Virus record (IMG/VR): IMGVR_UViG_2563366998_000006
DNA: 41,043 bases
DNA from: a virus
Taxonomy: Duplodnaviria; Heunggongvirae; Uroviricota; Caudoviricetes
Reading direction: 5' to 3' (one strand)
Below are positions 2,800 to 8,130 of the stretch, one piece after another. The position numbers were made by a program, and so were the translations under genes. The notes below the pieces were generated by a model. That model had not been told where the DNA came from and made no database searches. It was given only the letters and a program-made list of their open reading frames with translations. Within the stretch, counting starts at the first letter, position 1. Every line of letters begins with the position of its first letter.

Positions 2800-3144
2800 T
2801 TATTTCACCTCTTGTTGTGACATTGTTGAAAAATGGATACCAGCTCGTTGCTGCCAGATGATCCAACCGAGAGTCATATCCCATGCCATGTATTCGTTAT
2901 CGCCGTTTTTTGCTCTCCGACGATCGACTGTTTTACCGAAACGCTTTTCCATAAATAATTCATAGGCTGCGCGTTCATCTGGCTCAACTTCCAGAGATGC
3001 CAGTGCAATCCGTGCCAGTTCTAAATCATTTTCAAGCTCAGCGCGAATCTCAGCGAATGCACTCTGTGTTAAGGCGAACTCAATGCTCTGCACTTTATTC
3101 CGTGCGCGCTCAAGCAGTGCATGGTAGTTAATTTCGGTTGTCAT
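2800..3144 (-). CDS. Hypothetical early-left protein
   Basis: 114-aa ORF; ATG overlaps the stop of the upstream gene (ATGA), consistent with translational coupling; no family recognised. Confidence 0.5.
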   Translation of the reverse strand: MTTEINYHALLERARNKVQSIEFALTQSAFAEIRAELENDLELARIALASLEVEPDERAAYELFMEKRFGKTVDRRRAKNGDNEYMAWDMTLGWIIWQQRAGIHFSTMSQQEVK

Positions 3145-4019
3145 ACCCCTACCTCTTCGAATTCCAATTCCAATTGATCACCCCAGATTTCACATGACTC
3201 TGAACACGAGCCGGTATCGAATCGCCTGGCCTGTACCATCGCCTGATACAAATTTCTGTAGTCGCTGTTGGCAGACATTCTGGCAATTCCGTCAAGCGTC
3301 AGGTGACCACGGTACATAATGTCTTTACCTGTTCTGCGATGACCATCCCTGACGTGTTTGCCTGTAACCAGCTCATTAAAAACTCGCATCAGACCTGGTT
3401 CGTCTTTACATGCAAGCCCCAGCTTTTGCGTTGACTTTTTGATGCAGAAAACACAGTTCCCGAGATGCTCCGGGATTTGCAAATCAAAAGGTTGTTTTCG
3501 CCACCACCGGATAACATCCGACTTATCAAAATCTGACAGCTCGGCAAGATACCGGACGCCCGATTTCGGTTTCAGCCTACGGGGTTCGTCTGCACGAATA
3601 CCCAGCCATGTGATGTAATTACCTCGCCCGAAATGGTTATCGCAGTATTTCGTGAAAGGGATGAGTTTTAGCCTGTCAGTACAGAACGCGCCGCCGATGT
3701 ATGGCGTGCCGTACTTTTTAACCATGTCCATAAACGGTTTAAGCACCGGCATTCGTGTCTGAATATCCGTTGGCTCCCATTCTGTATAACCATTTGGCTG
3801 CCCAAGCTCAGGATTTATATCGACCTGTAACACAGTTAGTGGTATGTCCCAGAACTTCACAACCTCCCGGATAAAGCGGTATGTCAGCGGATGTTCGCAA
3901 CCGGTATCCATAAAGATGTAGCAGACGTTATTGCCAGCCTTTCTTTGTTCTTCCATCAGGTGAACAAGATATGCGGATGTTCTCCCGCCAGAAAAACTAA
4001 CTACATGAGTTATGCACAT
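3141..4019 (-). CDS. PAPS-reductase-family (PP-loop ATP pyrophosphatase-like) protein
   Basis: 292 aa; N-terminal PP-loop-like motif VVSFSGGRTSAY; family is common in lambdoid early regions. Confidence 0.75.
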   Translation of the reverse strand: MCITHVVSFSGGRTSAYLVHLMEEQRKAGNNVCYIFMDTGCEHPLTYRFIREVVKFWDIPLTVLQVDINPELGQPNGYTEWEPTDIQTRMPVLKPFMDMVKKYGTPYIGGAFCTDRLKLIPFTKYCDNHFGRGNYITWLGIRADEPRRLKPKSGVRYLAELSDFDKSDVIRWWRKQPFDLQIPEHLGNCVFCIKKSTQKLGLACKDEPGLMRVFNELVTGKHVRDGHRRTGKDIMYRGHLTLDGIARMSANSDYRNLYQAMVQARRFDTGSCSESCEIWGDQLELEFEEVGV

Positions 4020-4546
4020 TTGCGTAATTCCGATAACTCGTTGAAGCGTTCCATAAACATCCCGTAGGCATGGCCCGGTGCCAGTGGAATAACTTTGAAC
4101 ATCTCTGTTGCCGGGATACCTTCCAGTACTGGCCAGAAAGAGCCATCATCAAGCCCGAGATCGCGGCGTTCAGTTGCCAGCATGATGAGATCGGCATATT
4201 TCACGGGTGTACTCATAACTGGGGGTAACCCGTATTTCTCACGGATTACGGCGTCTATTTTTTCTTCCATCCGTTTATAGTCAGGAAGAAGGCGTTTCAG
4301 TGGCGCCGGGATGTCCTGGCAATACGCTTCTGTTGCATCATGCATTAACGCTTCAAAAGCAAATTCCTGCGGCACCAGTTGGCTGCAAAGCACCGCATGT
4401 TGGGCGACGCTGTAGAAATGTGAAAGATGTCCTGCAAAGCGACAGATATTTGAAAGGGAAACCGCGATATCGTTAATAACGATGTCGTCTTGATTTATCT
4501 TGTCATAATAAAAATGCTTCCCGGAAAAAGTTTTAATAAATGACAT
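4010..4546 (-). CDS. HD-domain phosphohydrolase (YfdR/YfbR-like 5'-deoxynucleotidase family)
   Basis: Start placed at the internal ATG (MSFIKTF...) preceded by GGAGA; 178 aa; H...HD motif (AQHAV...LMHDATEAY). Confidence 0.7.
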   Translation of the reverse strand: MSFIKTFSGKHFYYDKINQDDIVINDIAVSLSNICRFAGHLSHFYSVAQHAVLCSQLVPQEFAFEALMHDATEAYCQDIPAPLKRLLPDYKRMEEKIDAVIREKYGLPPVMSTPVKYADLIMLATERRDLGLDDGSFWPVLEGIPATEMFKVIPLAPGHAYGMFMERFNELSELRKCA

Positions 4547-4673
4547 TTTGTTCTCCACGTATATGCGCTGCACCGCGCTGAATTCTGGTAAAAGGAAGTC
4601 CTCACCATCCGGCGATTATTGAGTTAATTACGTTTCCATAAATTCCCCCGCAGGGGCATTTGCAGTAATGAAA

Positions 4674-5498
4674 TCAGGCGGTGAAAGTACCAATAAAGGT
4701 TTCTACTTTGCTGTCTTTGAATTTCTCAACAAGCAGATCACGAAATTCGTTAGCCATTTCTTCCTGCACCGCTTCCAGCTGAATAATGCGCAGAACCAGT
4801 ACAGGACGATCGCCAGTGATAATGCTGAGGCGTAATTTAAATGGACGTTCTTTCAGGCCTTCAAACGGAACGCATTTAAATTCAAATGCCACTGGCATAA
4901 TGTCTTTGGTCTTCGCTTCGACAGACTCCATCAGGGAGCGTTTGCCGCTGAAGTCATTATCTTCAAAATCAGCGGTCTGGTTCGCTTCAATTGTGATTTT
5001 ACGGATAGCCGCCGCCGCTTTGGTTGCCTGAATGGCGTCACCATTAGCATCAAAGCCCACAAGGTAGTCGGCCCAGTCTTCAATCCATTCTGCCAGTGAT
5101 TTCTGGGAGTTACGCTCGCCATTAACAGACAACAGAGCAGAGAACGGTGCTGTCTTTTTCAGTTTGAGAGTGGCGGTGTTATCTGCGTGACCTGGTTCAT
5201 CAATAGTACCCAGGTTAAGCACACTGACGGCACGCATATTATCAGCATCGATAAAGCAGCGGGTGCCTTCATCTGCAAGATCTTTAGAATAACGGGTAAA
5301 GTCATCGATGCTGGCAGTGGAAAGCGCACCACGGAAACGGAAGCGATTTAAATTAAATTTTTCCAGATCATGAATGCGGAAATTCTCAGGCAATGCCACA
5401 GCATCGGCACCAATCTTACTGATAATTTCATTAACACCCTGAGCAGAAATAAGGGCATGGATTTGATTAAATGCGGTTGCGTCTAAGTTTTGAGACAT
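4674..5498 (-). CDS. YfdQ-like (DUF2303-type) prophage protein
   Basis: 274-aa [23 protein letters not shown]...; recalled similarity to CPS-53 prophage YfdQ. Confidence 0.65.
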
Positions 5499-5563
5499 AA
5501 TAAGTCCTCACTATATTAAGATATTCAGTGATGAGATAAATAATCGGTTAATTAAGAACGATA

Positions 5564-5926
5564 TTAATGACCTGCTGCGCGGAGTTTTCCGTCAGGTTCA
5601 CCGGCAAGAGTCAGTAATTGTCCCTGGTCTTCCTGCAGAATAGTCAGGCGACCACCGCGATTGACATACATCGGCGTTTCGGTGGTGTCTTCTTCGGAAA
5701 TTTTCCCGCGGTTAGTCGGGCGAACATATGAGAGTTTGTGTTTGATTTTCACACGGTTTTCATCAAATGGTTCGATTTCCAGGTTGAGTGAGACCTTACC
5801 TTTGGTTTTCGTGTTCATCACACCGGAAGCGACTTCACTGAGAACTGCGCCGATTTTGGTTTCAAATACGCCGCCGTCCAGCTCCCCGATAAATGCCTGC
5901 ACATCAGTACTGCGTTCGCTAGCCAT
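5564..5926 (-). CDS. YfdP-like hypothetical prophage protein
   Basis: Start at the internal ATG (MASERSTDVQAF...) preceded by GAGGAG; 120 aa; the upstream in-frame extension is Arg/Cys/Pro-rich and looks non-coding. Confidence 0.6.
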   Translation of the reverse strand: MASERSTDVQAFIGELDGGVFETKIGAVLSEVASGVMNTKTKGKVSLNLEIEPFDENRVKIKHKLSYVRPTNRGKISEEDTTETPMYVNRGGRLTILQEDQGQLLTLAGEPDGKLRAAGH

Positions 5927-5974
5927 TTTGCTGCTCCTCATCATATCGACCCTGCAAGGTCGGTTAGTTTCTCC

Positions 5975-6063
5975 ACAAAACAGAGAAGAACACCTGCGGT
6001 GACTGCCGCCCGGATGGATTGGGTTATGAGCCCGTCGTCCGGTGATGCTCTTCTCTGTTTTGT
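5975..6063. repeat. Perfect 15-bp inverted repeat (ACAAAACAGAGAAGA / TCTTCTCTGTTTTGT) enclosing a 59-nt GC-rich loop; part of a structured non-coding block
   Basis: Arms at 5975-5989 and 6049-6063 are exact reverse complements; a further 9-bp inverted repeat CGGTACCAG/CTGGTACCG lies at 6072-6108. Confidence 0.6.
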
Positions 6064-6327
6064 AAAAAGGACGGTACCAGCCGGAAGCAAGGGTACAAAC
6101 TGGTACCGCCAGGACTACACACAGCATAAAGTTGTGGTGCCGGGTGCCTCCCGGTGCCTGGCGAAGGTTGCACACCAGGCGGGTGGGTATCCACAGAAGG
6201 TCGACTGTCAGCCTCAACCTTAACCCGCGTGCGCTGAGCCGCATTCACCACAACGCTAAGGATTCTCTCTGGTTGAAAATACTTAGCTGTTATGTGCCTG
6301 CTTTTAGCCACATCAGGCGAGGTGGAC

Positions 6328-6379
6328 CTGGTTATTCCCCAACAACAAGGATTCGGTTAATCTGGTTATCCCCAACAAC
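6328..6379. repeat. Direct repeats CTGGTTAT(T)CCCCAACAAC x2 upstream of the orphan plus-strand gene (putative regulator-binding sites)
   Basis: Copies at 6328-6346 and 6362-6379, ending 16 bp before the ATG at 6395. Confidence 0.5.
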
Positions 6380-6394
6380 GCAAAAGGAAAAGAA

Positions 6395-6829
6395 ATGTCC
6401 GGTAATATCTATACGCTGTACAAATCCCACTGTGAAAATGTTGGAAAGTATCGGGGCATTGAAATCAGTGGGGTAGTGTCATCAGTCGAAATAAGCAAAG
6501 TTGAATCAAGGGCAACATTACTTACTCTTCTGGACCTTGTCTTAAATGAGCACCGGAAGAAATTCGGCACACCCTATAATCAGTTGAATGGGAAAAAGGC
6601 TCTGGTTCACCTTATTCTGATGAAGCATCACTGGATGCCAAAACAGATTAATGAGATGAAATTTGATGAACTTCTTCTTTCAATTCAGGATGAACTCACG
6701 CTTGATAAAATAAGTGTAACCGCCCAGAAATTTTTAGATTATCGAGACTGGAGATCACAAATTCATCACTTTGATGATTTTGACGAAAATGAATGGGATC
6801 CTAATTTGTCTGCACAATATCTAAAGTAA
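6395..6829 (+). CDS. Hypothetical AT-rich orphan protein (accessory gene antisense to the early-left operon)
   Basis: 144-aa ORF with AAGGA RBS 7 nt upstream; visibly AT-rich compared with its neighbours; acidic C-terminus; no family recognised. Confidence 0.5.
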   Translation: MSGNIYTLYKSHCENVGKYRGIEISGVVSSVEISKVESRATLLTLLDLVLNEHRKKFGTPYNQLNGKKALVHLILMKHHWMPKQINEMKFDELLLSIQDELTLDKISVTAQKFLDYRDWRSQIHHFDDFDENEWDPNLSAQYLK

Positions 6830-7007
6830 CATCCTGTGATAAAACCGTGATTTCCTGATCCAGTTTTTTTAAGGAGTCTATTGTTTCCTGTCGATAAGAC
6901 AGCACTTCACGAAGCTGGTTTATAGCTGCCAGCTTCTTTGTCATCCACTCATAAATTTCCTCATCTGTGTAGCCAGGCGCGACGATTTTTGGTTCTGTTT
7001 TGTGCAT
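6801..7007 (-). CDS. Hypothetical small protein, first ORF of the leftward early operon
   Basis: 68 aa from the internal ATG (MHKTEPKIV...) with strong RBS GAGGAGG; 3' end overlaps the 6395-6829 gene convergently. Confidence 0.45.
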   Translation of the reverse strand: MHKTEPKIVAPGYTDEEIYEWMTKKLAAINQLREVLSYRQETIDSLKKLDQEITVLSQDVTLDIVQTN

Positions 7008-7067
7008 TTCACACCTCCTCAAGTTATCAGTTACTTGTTGATGGGGACCAGATTGTTAAAGAGCGAA

Positions 7068-7090
7068 GCGTCCTATAGGGCGCTTTTTTT
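7068..7090 (+). terminator. Intrinsic terminator-like hairpin plus T7 run
   Basis: GCGTCC-TATA-GGGCGC stem-loop (one G-U pair) followed by TTTTTTT on the plus strand. Confidence 0.5.
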
Positions 7091-7263
7091 GTTGCTAACG
7101 AATCATCCGGTCATTCATACGCCACCGGCGGCTACTTCGTGGGCGTCCTGCCTGTTCGTTTTTGACATTTACTGACCTCTTACGACACATGCACCGTGCA
7201 CCGTGTTGCAACCAGATTTTGTTGTAATCCTGTAGTTGGTCTGGAACAAAAGATAAAATTAAA

Positions 7264-7300
7264 TTGCGAGATATGCAAGTAATATTTGCGAAATATGCAA
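7264..7300. promoter_or_regulatory. OL-type operator pair (15-bp sites TTGCGAGATATGCAA and TTGCGAAATATGCAA), presumed pL region
   Basis: Two near-identical 15-bp imperfect palindromes at 7264-7278 and 7286-7300, sharing the TTGCG...GCAA pattern with the sites between cI and cro. Confidence 0.6.
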
Positions 7301-7310
7301 AACGGTGGGT

Positions 7311-7334
7311 AATAAAAAGCCACCTTTCGGTGGC
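7311..7334 (-). terminator. Intrinsic terminator downstream of cI
   Basis: On the minus strand: GCCACC-GAAA-GGTGGC hairpin followed by TTTTTATT, 20 bp after the cI stop. Confidence 0.55.
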
Positions 7335-7354
7335 CGATGGATGGGATATTGAGG

Positions 7355-8047
7355 TTAATTATGTCTCTTAAGGGTTTGCGACTGACTGATTAAGACCTTT
7401 CCAAAGACCATAAATCGGTGTTCGTTTTCGCTAGTAATTCCCCATTCACGGTAAATCTGGTTATCAGAAATCACCAGCAGTTTGTCAGGAATCATTTGAA
7501 GTCTTTTAACGTATATTTTGTCATCAAAACCAAAGACATATATACCATCACCATCAAACTGATTGATGCTGACATCAACGAAGATGAGATCTCCTGGCTC
7601 AATGGTTGGACACATACTGTCCCCACGAACGTTGATAACTTTGATGTGATTGGCTGGTCGTCCGCCGAACATTGATACAGCATTATCAGTTCTGTATTCG
7701 ATGGCATGAATCACATCAATGACATCACCGCCCTGGATAAGGCCATTTCCCGCACTGGCACTGATATCCAGCATTTCAATACGGAACACATCCTTCACCT
7801 GCGCAACATCCTCATTATTACTGTTTTTATATACAGTATTACTTTTGAGGGCAGAGGTAAAGAGATCAGCAATATCAACACCTAAGCTCTTGGCAATATT
7901 ACTCAGTGTTTGTTCGGTAAATTGTTTTTGCTTACCCGTTTCTAAGCGCGAGATGTTCGCCGCATCTACTCCTATTGCTTCAGCGAGATCGGCGATTTTC
8001 ATGTTCTTCGCTTGGCGAAGTTGTCTGACTCGGTTTCCTATGTTCAT
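7355..8047 (-). CDS. cI: CI-type prophage repressor (N-terminal HTH, C-terminal S24 LexA-like peptidase domain)
   Basis: 230 aa; HTH segment IADLAEAIGVDAANISRLETGK; C-terminal S24-like region (VRGDSMCPTIEPGDLIFVD ... KRL); divergent from cro across an operator-rich intergenic region. Confidence 0.85.
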   Translation of the reverse strand: MNIGNRVRQLRQAKNMKIADLAEAIGVDAANISRLETGKQKQFTEQTLSNIAKSLGVDIADLFTSALKSNTVYKNSNNEDVAQVKDVFRIEMLDISASAGNGLIQGGDVIDVIHAIEYRTDNAVSMFGGRPANHIKVINVRGDSMCPTIEPGDLIFVDVSINQFDGDGIYVFGFDDKIYVKRLQMIPDKLLVISDNQIYREWGITSENEHRFMVFGKVLISQSQTLKRHN

Positions 8048-8067: not shown

Positions 8068-8130
8068 TTGCGTGATAAGCAAATCAACTTGCGCAAAATA
8101 ATTGCGTGAAATAACATGCATAACGCGCAA
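8068..8130. promoter_or_regulatory. OR-type operator cluster between cI and cro (presumed pRM/pR region)
   Basis: TTGCGTGATAAGCAA (8068-8082), TTGCGCAA (8089-8096), TTGCGTGAAATAACA (8102-8116) and reverse-orientation TTGCGCGTTATGCAT (8116-8130). Confidence 0.6.

What the first reader, a model, noticed from the sequence alone, without database searches (positions are those of the whole stretch)
6328..7007. AT-rich orphan gene transcribed against the early-left operon, with tandem direct repeats in its promoter region
The 144-aa ORF (6395-6829) is on the opposite strand to all its neighbours and is visibly more AT-rich. It has a good RBS and two 18-19-bp direct repeats (CTGGTTAT(T)CCCCAACAAC) just upstream, and its 3' end overlaps a convergent 68-aa ORF. 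Opposite-strand, compositionally distinct genes in this position are typically lysogen-expressed accessory genes such as superinfection exclusion or abortive infection.
Basis: partly seen in the sequence, partly recalled or inferred. Interest (0 to 1): 0.5.

Follow-up and report, generated by a model that had tools for sequence, protein, structure and literature searches.

The report
Accessory gene pair in sieB slot
The flagged gene is a real but uncharacterised prophage accessory gene (ECs1072 family) that sits where phages lambda and P22 carry their exclusion gene sieB and has inherited that gene's promoter and antisense-RNA control region, so the "direct repeats" are a known regulatory block driving a different cargo.

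Summary
ORF 6395-6829 (+, 144 aa, GC 0.38 against 0.50 for the window) lies against the leftward early genes. Two direct repeats sit upstream, and its 3' end overlaps a convergent 68-aa ORF by 29 nt.

It is not an orphan. It scores 156 bits against NCBIfam NF033230, "ECs1072 family phage-associated protein" (cut-off 70). The family has 63 clusters at 50% identity, and the cassette is in 408 of 5426 complete E. coli genomes.

Window 6282-6399 is homologous over its full length to the P22 and lambda sieB promoter, leader and sas antisense-RNA block. By alignment to the mapped P22 sites, repeat 1 covers the -35 and repeat 2 starts the mRNA. Different phages carry different cargo behind this block: SieB, BssS, a CxxC protein, or ECs1072.

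The ECs1072 gene and its small partner form a conserved convergent pair in Escherichia, Shigella, Proteus, Providencia, Enterobacter, Klebsiella and Citrobacter prophages. The partner always faces with the lytic operon.

The confident AlphaFold model has no structural relative, and neither protein has a membrane segment.

Most likely it is a lysogen-expressed moron that is switched off by antisense early-left (pL) transcription. A defence role, with the 68-aa protein as self-immunity factor, is inferred and untested.

The parts
6282..6399 (-). sas-like block. It is the homologue of the P22 antisense RNA sas and of the sieB promoter and leader on the other strand. It runs from the start codon of the 144-aa ORF to the conserved GCCTG...CAGGC hairpin.
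   Evidence: Alignment A5 of 10 phages has 74% mean column identity. The P22 sas sequence in PMC13397905 Table 2 is the reverse complement of P22 L018 about 1641-1763.
6293..6325 (.). Conserved anchor GTGCCTGCTTTTAGCCACATCAGGCGAGGTGG. On the - strand it is the 3' hairpin (GCCUG/CAGGC) of the sas-like RNA.
   Evidence: Invariant pairs in 10 of 10 phages. It is also present upstream of ECs1072 homologues in Providencia and Proteus.
6328..6346 (+). Direct repeat 1 (CTGGTTATTCCCCAACAAC). It contains the -35 equivalent TTATTC at 6332-6337.
   Evidence: D3. Position mapped from the annotated P22 sieB promoter through alignment A5. The hairpin around it is 88% paired, with 2 compensatory pairs.
6356..6361 (+). 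-10 equivalent GTTAAT (P22 has GATAAA).
   Evidence: Mapped by alignment to the P22 promoter feature at L018 1691-1721. Inferred, not measured.
6362..6379 (+). Direct repeat 2 (CTGGTTATCCCCAACAAC). The P22 sieB RNA start aligns to T6369, so CCCCAACAAC would be the 5' end of the mRNA.
6395..6829 (+). 144-aa ECs1072-family protein: soluble, all-helical, no known structural relative.
6801..7007 (-). 68-aa convergent partner (phrog_1744). It is the first ORF downstream of pL, acidic, and modelled as a single long helix at residues 15-59.
   Evidence: Homology to the 85- and 93-aa partners of Proteus and Enterobacter modules. AlphaFold pLDDT 85.
6911..6936 (+). Terminator-like hairpin on the ECs1072 strand, inside the partner ORF.
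   Evidence: Equivalent hairpins occur in the Proteus and Klebsiella modules.
7034..7054 (.). Inverted third copy of the repeat (CTTGTTGATGGGGACCAGATT).
   Evidence: I3, I5. Duplex energy is about 4 sd below interior windows. A 26-nt, 85% complementary equivalent lies in PhiR29_1, around different cargo.
7065..7095 (+). Intrinsic terminator for the rightward transcript (9-bp stem plus T run).
   Evidence: It is shared with PhiR29_1, where homology resumes at 7048.
7180..7300 (-). OL operator-like sites (TTGCGAnATATGCAA at 7264 and 7286, a weaker one at 7180), and so the pL region.
   Evidence: Related sites lie at 8068 and 8116 between cI and cro.

Best explanation
The locus 6282-7095 is a moron (a swappable accessory cassette) in the sieB slot of an SfIV-like lambdoid prophage.

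Shown by homology:
- The region upstream of the 144-aa gene is the same element that drives sieB in P22 and lambda.
- By alignment to the mapped P22 sites, repeat 1 overlaps the -35 (TTATTC, 6332-6337).
- GTTAAT (6356-6361) is the -10.
- The mRNA starts near 6369 at repeat 2.
- On the other strand the same 118 nt correspond to the antisense RNA sas.

Inferred from geometry:
- In the lysogen a rightward mRNA of about 0.55-0.73 kb is made. It ends at the hairpin 6911-6936 or the terminator 7065-7095.
- That mRNA encodes a soluble ECs1072-family protein, and its 3' part is antisense to the 68-aa ORF.
- On induction or infection, pL transcription (from about 7240 leftward) first expresses the 68-aa protein.
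- It then reads antisense through the 144-aa gene and yields a sas-like RNA covering that gene's leader, ribosome-binding site and start codon. This shuts the gene off.

Inferred from conserved pairing and orientation:
- The 144-aa protein is a lysogen-phase effector. A phage-exclusion or abortive-infection factor is the leading guess.
- The 68-aa helical protein is its lytic-phase antagonist. It would spare the phage's own development, playing the part that Esc and sas play for SieB.

I put the architecture and regulation part at about 0.8 and the defence/self-immunity part at about 0.35.
For: Real gene and family:
- NF033230 at 156 bits against a cut-off of 70.
- phrog_5286.
- 63 clusters at 50% identity with conserved motifs.
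- Confident AlphaFold model.

Swappable cassette:
- PhiR29_1 is homologous up to 6379 and from 7048, and SfV up to 6325 and from 7097.
- Different genes sit in between.

Control block:
- The window block aligns over its full length with P22 and lambda.
- The P22 record carries a mapped sieB promoter and RNA start.
- The P22 sas sequence from RNA-seq covers exactly this block (PMC13397905).
- Spacing of the two repeat units is 33-34 bp in all three phages.
- Cargo behind the block is SieB PF14163 in lambda and ev207, BssS PF13991 in F1055, and a CxxC protein in PhiR29_1 and Kp4882.

Transcript ends and pL:
- Terminators at 6911-6936 and 7065-7095.
- Operators place pL at 7180-7300.

Conserved pair:
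- An ECs1072 homologue and a partner homologue lie convergent in the window, SfIV, Proteus, Enterobacter, Providencia, P. terrae, L021, Klebsiella and Citrobacter.
- This holds whether the search starts from either protein.
- Salmonella DT104 keeps the partner plus a decayed ECs1072 fragment.
- The partner always faces with the lytic operon (pL, or Q-dependent late), and ECs1072 always faces against it.

Expression hint:
- ECs1072 is listed as growth-phase responsive in uninduced O157 Sakai (PMC2241611).
Against: - No transcript data exist for this phage.
- The promoter hexamers are weak (TTATTC-18-GTTAAT) and the consensus scan did not call them.
- The window's sas-like strand folds no better than shuffled sequence (z +0.8, against -2.1 for P22).
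- RNAalifold recovers only the 3' hairpin.
- No PADLOC, Pfam, PDB or BFVD match gives any functional handle.
- The slot also holds a BssS-family gene, which is not a defence gene.
- In the Q-to-lysis contexts the sas block is absent, so that control is a property of the slot, not of the module.
- Locus L022 has no recognisable partner.
- The inverted third copy is absent from lambda, P22, Kp4882 and F1055, and this model does not explain it.
Confidence: 0.6

Rival explanations
1. The pair is a lysogenic-conversion or host-modulating module unrelated to phage defence. The 144-aa protein would alter host physiology in the lysogen, and the 68-aa protein would be an unrelated early lytic gene or a regulator of it.
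For: The same slot carries a BssS-family biofilm-regulator homologue in phage F1055. There is no hit to any PADLOC model. Both proteins are soluble with no membrane segment. ECs1072 responds to growth phase in Sakai.
Against: The tight convergent linkage of the two genes across distant hosts and two different genome positions argues that they work together. Their fixed orientation relative to lytic operons is what is expected of an effector that must be neutralised during the phage's own growth.
Confidence: 0.25
2. The pair is a toxin-antitoxin-like addiction module, with the 144-aa toxin and the 68-aa antitoxin stabilising the prophage.
For: Two small, tightly linked genes. The partner is a single acidic helix of the kind that often binds and masks another protein. 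One locus keeps the partner with a decayed ECs1072 gene, which is the order of loss expected if the larger protein is harmful.
Against: The genes are convergent, not co-transcribed. The presumed antitoxin faces with repressed lytic operons, so it should be off in the lysogen, exactly when an antitoxin is needed. There is no match to known toxin or antitoxin families.
Confidence: 0.1
3. The repeats (two direct, one inverted) are binding sites for a DNA-binding protein, either a regulator that loops the cassette or a DNA-based immunity element like aba of BstA. They would not be RNA or promoter elements.
For: Spacing of 33-34 bp is conserved. The inverted copy flanks the cassette in both the window and PhiR29_1, and it follows a base change in repeat 2 there. 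The aba element of BstA also depends on direct repeats around the start codon (PMC8585504).
Against: The P22 promoter, RNA start and sas RNA already account for both direct repeats. No candidate binding protein is evident: neither cassette protein has a DNA-binding domain. The repeat sequence differs between clades (CCCCAACAAC against CCCCTACAG) independently of cargo. The inverted copy is missing in most phages that have the block.
Confidence: 0.1
4. The ORF is a chance open frame and the real feature is only the non-coding RNA block.
For: SfIV annotation in this region contains evident over-calls (SfIV_34 and SfIV_35 run across the sRNA-like element and the sas block).
Against: The protein family is conserved down to about 25% identity with invariant residues. 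The AlphaFold model is confident. A curated NCBIfam model matches.
Confidence: 0.02

Closest known systems
sieB / esc / sas locus of phages P22 and lambda (Ranade and Poteete 1993, Genes Dev 7:1498, cited from my own knowledge and via PMC12197685 and PMC13397905)
   Same: - Same place in the genome: inside the pL operon, near the repressor.
- Same orientation against pL.
- Homologous promoter, leader and antisense block with two repeat units 33-34 bp apart, reaching the start codon.
- Same logic: a prophage gene that the phage must silence in its own lytic growth.
   Different: - The cargo is unrelated to SieB. It has no PF14163 hit, it is soluble where SieB is not, and its fold is different.
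- There is no in-frame Esc. Instead a separate convergent 68-aa gene overlaps the 3' end.
- An extra inverted repeat copy and a terminator lie at the right end.
- No N gene lies between the cassette and pL.
ECs1072 family phage-associated protein (NCBIfam NF033230; PHROG 5286)
   Same: The 144-aa protein is a full-length member (156 bits against a cut-off of 70; residues 4-144 on profile positions 2-142).
   Different: Nothing differs at the protein level. The family itself has no assigned function, structure or literature beyond one microarray table.
BstA-aba of prophage BTP1 (Owen et al. 2021, PMC8585504)
   Same: A lysogen-expressed prophage gene next to the repressor locus, with its own terminator, a built-in self-immunity element at its 5' end, and functionally required direct repeats around the start codon.
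   Different: There is no sequence or fold similarity. BstA is larger, aba acts as DNA, and there is no protein partner.
TERi system of Listeria prophages (TerI with anti-TerI1/2; bioRxiv 10.1101/2025.02.27.640495)
   Same: The concept of a small prophage defence protein plus small proteins made during induction that neutralise it.
   Different: Different hosts, no homology, and a function demonstrated there but not here.
Classical lambdoid morons (for example HK97 gp15; my own knowledge)
   Same: Own promoter and terminator, lower GC than the flanks, and present in some relatives and replaced in others.
   Different: Here the promoter is not part of the mobile cargo. It belongs to a conserved slot that also encodes an antisense off-switch.

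Membership tests
ECs1072 family (NCBIfam NF033230) | Whole-protein HMM score above the curated cut-off (70 bits), full-length match | tested here: met
   156.2 bits, E 5e-46, residues 4-144 on profile positions 2-142 of 142. Also phrog_5286, E 4e-90.
ECs1072 family (NCBIfam NF033230) | Association with phages or prophages | tested here: met
   All contexts examined are prophages or phages.
SieB superinfection exclusion protein (Pfam PF14163) | Sequence match to the SieB profile | tested here: not met
   No Pfam hit for the 144-aa protein at E up to 0.1. SieB of lambda and ev207 score 103 and 79 bits in the same library.
SieB superinfection exclusion protein (Pfam PF14163) | Hydrophobic, membrane-associated protein with an internal in-frame start giving Esc | tested here: not met
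   Maximum 19-residue hydropathy is 0.84 and GRAVY is -0.47. No conserved internal start was seen in alignment A2. That SieB is membrane-associated comes from my own knowledge.
P22-type sieB promoter / sas antisense block | Sequence homology to the experimentally defined sas RNA and sieB promoter region | tested here: met
   Alignment A5 has 74% mean column identity over 118 nt, with 47 invariant columns in 10 phages. sas sequence from PMC13397905. Promoter and RNA start from the P22 record.
P22-type sieB promoter / sas antisense block | Two repeat units about 34 bp apart, the proximal one at the mRNA 5' end, with the block abutting the cargo start codon | tested here: met
   CCCCAACAAC at 6337 and 6370 (33 bp apart), against CCCCTACAG 34 bp apart in P22 and lambda.
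P22-type sieB promoter / sas antisense block | A discrete antisense RNA is actually produced and switches translation | not testable with these tools
   Needs RNA-seq or Northern blots and reporter fusions. The fold of the window strand is not distinctive (z +0.8).
Moron (lambdoid accessory cassette) | Own promoter and terminator, presence or absence among close relatives, deviant base composition | tested here: met
   Promoter by homology. Terminator 7065-7095. Replaced in SfV and PhiR29_1. GC 0.39 against 0.50.
Known anti-phage defence systems (PADLOC-DB 2.0) | Match of either protein to a defence-system model | tested here: not met
   No families at E up to 1 for either protein.
Type II toxin-antitoxin module | Co-directional, co-transcribed gene pair with a recognisable toxin or antitoxin fold | tested here: not met
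   The genes are convergent and overlap at their 3' ends. No Pfam or NCBIfam toxin or antitoxin hits.
STnc100 / PasD sRNA family (Rfam RF02076), neighbouring element at 6062-6284 | Covariance-model score at or above the gathering score (47 bits) | tested here: inconclusive
   43.1 bits, E 2e-7, full model length 1-206. Not listed at the gathering threshold.

The most novel reading that the evidence does not exclude
ECs1072 plus its small convergent partner is a new two-protein prophage defence system with cognate self-immunity. It would consist of a soluble effector with a previously unseen helical fold, made in the lysogen, and a single-helix antidote made only from the phage's own lytic operon. 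In the sieB slot it would be backed up by a sas-type antisense RNA. More broadly, the conserved sieB promoter / sas block would be a portable "defence socket" with a built-in off-switch, into which lambdoid phages of Escherichia, Shigella, Salmonella and Klebsiella plug different cargo.
Probability: 0.3. Interest if true: 0.7.

Novelty: new variant of a known kind. Interest (0 to 1): 0.5.

Why it matters
The cassette is in about 7.5% of complete E. coli genomes, and the control block alone is in about 13% more. Yet the protein family has no known function, structure or literature.

Linking it to the sieB/sas control region gives a concrete, cheap set of experiments: the transcript start, the antisense species, a phage-panel challenge, and rescue by the 68-aa gene.

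The link also suggests that the P22 sas mechanism, known from one phage since 1993, is a general cargo-independent switch used across enterobacterial lambdoid phages.

If the pair proves to be a defence and self-immunity system, it adds a new fold and a new architecture to the short list of prophage defences known to spare their own phage (SieB/Esc, BstA/aba, TerI/anti-TerI).

Tried and rejected
Searches that found nothing for the 144-aa protein:
- Pfam, PADLOC and PDB sequence searches.
- Weak HEPN-toxin rows in Foldseek (E 6-7) were disregarded as noise, and no Rx4-6H motif is conserved.

Tools that could not be used:
- The afdb50 library was not available.
Contexts were gathered one protein at a time instead.

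Analyses that gave little:
- RNAalifold on the sas block gave only the invariant 3' hairpin plus a GGGG:CC pairing with one clade-level compensatory change. I do not rely on it.
- The hand-proposed hairpin around repeat 1 has modest support.
- The distal hairpin differs in register between lambda and P22, so I did not test it on the alignment.
- Single-sequence folding of the window's antisense strand is not better than shuffles.

Ideas considered and dropped:
- I looked for the inverted third copy in lambda, P22, Kp4882 and F1055 and did not find it. It is therefore not a general part of the block.
- Invertible-segment and transposon-end readings of the inverted repeats were dropped. There is no recombinase nearby, and the arms are short and imperfect.
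- The 73-aa TTG start for the partner was rejected in favour of ATG 7007, which has a GGAGG site.
- The original Ranade and Poteete paper is not in the library.

Full report
**What is in the sequence.**
- The window is a lambdoid phage or prophage of the SfIV/SfV type. Region 5500-7400 is 98% identical to E. coli phages vB_EcoS-569R4 and Kati and to Shigella phage SfIV.
- The leftward early genes are on the - strand: PAPS-reductase-like 3141-4019, HD hydrolase 4010-4573, DUF2303 4674-5498 and yfdP-like 5564-5932. So is the cI repressor at 7355-8047.
- Between them lies the flagged + strand ORF, 6395-6829 (144 aa). It has an AAGGA ribosome-binding site. Its GC is 0.379, against 0.504 for the window.
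- The two direct repeats are real: 6328-6346 and 6362-6379 (chance expectation 0.03).
- A 68-aa ORF on the - strand (7007 to 6801, GGAGG site) overlaps the 3' end by 29 nt.
It is followed by a strong + strand intrinsic terminator at 7065-7095.

**Where pL is.**
- Exact 15-mers TTGCGAnATATGCAA lie at 7264 and 7286, with a weaker one at 7180. Related sites lie at 8068 and 8116 between cI and cro.
- A - strand terminator follows cI at 7335-7318.
- These are best read as OL and OR. pL therefore fires leftward from about 7200-7300. The 68-aa ORF is then its first ORF, and the 144-aa gene is transcribed head-on against it.

**It is a swappable cassette.**
- PhiR29_1 matches the window up to 6379 and again from 7048. 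SfV matches up to 6325 and from 7097.
- In between, PhiR29_1 has a 171-aa CxxC protein. SfV has orf33 on the - strand, and my reading suggests an unannotated small + strand ORF opposite it (not confirmed).
- In 5426 complete E. coli genomes, 408 carry at least 80% of 6285-7100. About 700 more carry only the first 95 nt or so, meaning the upstream block with other cargo.

**The protein.**
- It is not an orphan. It matches NCBIfam NF033230, "ECs1072 family phage-associated protein", at 156 bits against a cut-off of 70, and phrog_5286.
- An exhaustive HMMER scan finds 63 clusters at 50% identity. Nearly all are 145-155 aa, with invariant or near-invariant R54, L64, G66, A69, H72 and W134.
- Named homologues are in Escherichia, Salmonella, Enterobacter, Proteus and Providencia.
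- It has no Pfam, PADLOC or PDB sequence match.
- An AlphaFold model from 15 sequences is confident (pLDDT 85.9, pTM 0.83) and all-helical.
- It is soluble, with pI 6.4 and no membrane segment.
- The only literature hit is a microarray table listing ECs1072 as growth-phase responsive in uninduced O157 Sakai.

**What the repeats are.**
- A search with 6285-6394 found the same sequence in front of other genes in Klebsiella, Salmonella, Hafnia and lambda-like E. coli phages. In several of these the downstream gene is annotated as superinfection exclusion protein B.
- Side by side, the window block matches the region upstream of sieB in lambda and P22. The shared order is GTGCCTG..CCACATCAGGC..GGTGG, a first repeat unit, (A)TTCGG.TAA, a second repeat unit, the ribosome-binding site, then ATG.
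- The repeat core is CCCCTACAG in lambda and P22 and CCCCAACAAC here. Spacing is 33-34 bp in all three.
- The P22 record annotates the sieB promoter and RNA start.
- Carried through alignment A5, these map to TTATTC at 6332-6337 (inside repeat 1), GTTAAT at 6356-6361, and a start at T6369 (inside repeat 2).
- The P22 antisense RNA sas, as sequenced by RNA-seq (127 nt, PMC13397905), is the reverse complement of exactly this block. It runs from two bases inside the sieB start codon to just past the anchor hairpin.
- sas switches translation of sieB during P22 lytic growth (PMC12197685; Ranade and Poteete 1993, from my own knowledge).
- Structural support is modest. The 3' hairpin GCCUG/CAGGC is invariant. 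A hairpin around repeat 1 is 88% paired, with two compensatory pairs. The window strand does not fold better than shuffles.
- Shorter one-repeat versions of the block precede ECs1072 homologues in Providencia, Proteus terrae and locus L021.

**Cargo behind the block.**
- It is SieB (PF14163) in lambda and ev207.
- It is a BssS-family protein, with a convergent ClpX-type zinc-finger ORF, in Salmonella phage F1055.
- It is a CxxC protein in PhiR29_1 and Klebsiella phage Kp4882-1, and an unknown 189-aa protein in 606R2.
- The slot therefore hosts lysogen-phase accessory genes in general. It does not only host exclusion genes.

**A conserved two-gene module.**
- In Proteus (L004-L007) and Enterobacter (L008-L011) the ECs1072 homologue again faces against its neighbours. 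It again overlaps a convergent small ORF (85 or 93 aa, phrog_3501) by about 90-105 nt.
- There the pair lies between antiterminator Q and the lysis genes.
- That small ORF is homologous to the window's 68-aa ORF (23% identity, E 2e-6 pairwise). A three-sequence profile recovers the partner in SfIV, Providencia and P. terrae. A 49-aa version is visible in L021.
- Starting instead from the partner family, Klebsiella and Citrobacter loci again show a convergent, overlapping ECs1072 homologue (E 1e-44 to 1e-49). Salmonella DT104 has the partner plus a decayed ECs1072 fragment.
- Only L022 lacks a recognisable partner.
- In every case the partner faces with the lytic operon (pL or late) and ECs1072 faces against it.
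- The partner is acidic and is modelled as one long helix, residues 15-59, after a conserved P..V.PG motif (pLDDT 85).
- Terminator-like hairpins on the ECs1072 strand lie inside the partner ORF in the window, Proteus and Klebsiella.

**Most likely mechanism.**
- Shown by homology: the promoter, leader and antisense block.
- Inferred from geometry: rightward expression in the lysogen ends at 6936 or 7095. Leftward pL transcription makes the 68-aa protein first. It then silences the 144-aa gene by head-on transcription and by a sas-like RNA over its leader and start codon.
- Inferred from linkage and orientation: the 144-aa protein is a lysogen-phase effector and the 68-aa helix is its lytic-phase antagonist. 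This parallels SieB/Esc/sas, BstA/aba (PMC8585504) and TerI/anti-TerI.
- A defence role is plausible but unproven. The BssS cargo in the same slot and the absence of any defence-family match are real cautions.

**Unexplained.**
- The inverted third copy (7034-7054) can pair with the repeat block on either strand. Its duplex energy is about 4 sd below interior windows.
- PhiR29_1 has an equivalent 26-nt arm around different cargo. That arm follows the T-to-A change in its repeat 2.
- The copy is absent from lambda, P22, Kp4882 and F1055.
- It could close the mRNA ends, create a double-stranded processing site in the pL transcript, or bind a protein. I could not discriminate between these.

**Verdict.**
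- The gene belongs to a named but uncharacterised family. The new points are its placement behind a sas-type switch and its conserved convergent partner.
- Novelty: new variant of a known kind. Interest: 0.5.

Noticed in passing
window 6062-6284 (- strand): An STnc100/PasD-family prophage sRNA-like element matches the full Rfam model RF02076 at 43.1 bits (gathering score 47, E 2e-7). It starts directly after the 3' end of the sas-like block and ends in a terminator-like hairpin. The STnc100/PasD relationship is described in bioRxiv 10.64898/2026.05.13.724894.
   Followed up: partly
window 5564-6244 and 6132-6476 (SfIV_34 and SfIV_35 in L001): The long ORFs annotated in SfIV across this region run through the sRNA-like element and the sas block, so they are probably over-calls. 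The yfdP-like gene more likely starts at 5932 (122 aa, phrog_204).
   Followed up: partly
window 5975-5999 / 6039-6063: A 25-nt inverted repeat (84% complementary, 39-nt loop) lies between the sRNA-like element and the yfdP-like start. It could be a large hairpin in the leftward transcript.
   Followed up: no
window 7180-7300 and 8068-8130: Operator-like 15-mers TTGCGAnATATGCAA occur twice exactly at 7264 and 7286. Weaker copies lie at 7180, 8068 and 8116. They probably define OL and OR of this immunity type.
   Followed up: partly
window 7208-7216: A further short inverted match to repeat 2 (AACCAGATT) lies inside the presumed pL/OL region.
   Followed up: no
L013 1908-2420 (Salmonella phage F1055); L003 3896-4412 and L012 1912-2427: Other cargo sits behind the same sieB promoter / sas block. 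F1055 has a BssS-family 83-aa protein with a convergent 61-aa ClpX-type zinc-finger ORF. PhiR29_1 and Klebsiella phage Kp4882-1 have a 171-aa CxxC protein. Convergent pairs recur in this slot.
   Followed up: partly
L002 3866-4324 (phage SfV): SfV lacks the sas block. Its record annotates only orf33 on the - strand. From my reading of the sequence it may also carry an unannotated small + strand ORF with a similar AAAAGGAAAA ribosome-binding site opposite orf33, but my coordinates for it gave internal stop codons when translated.
   Followed up: no
L023 1283-1480 (Salmonella Typhimurium DT104 prophage): The partner gene is intact, but the ECs1072 homologue survives only as a roughly 65-aa fragment (E 8e-6). 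This hints that the larger gene is the one lost first.
   Followed up: no
L017 (lambda) and L018 (P22), distal repeat unit of sas: The stem around the distal repeat differs between lambda (AAACU/AGUUU) and P22 (ACUCU/AGAGU), yet it pairs in both. This is a possible compensatory change, seen by eye and not tested on an alignment.
   Followed up: no
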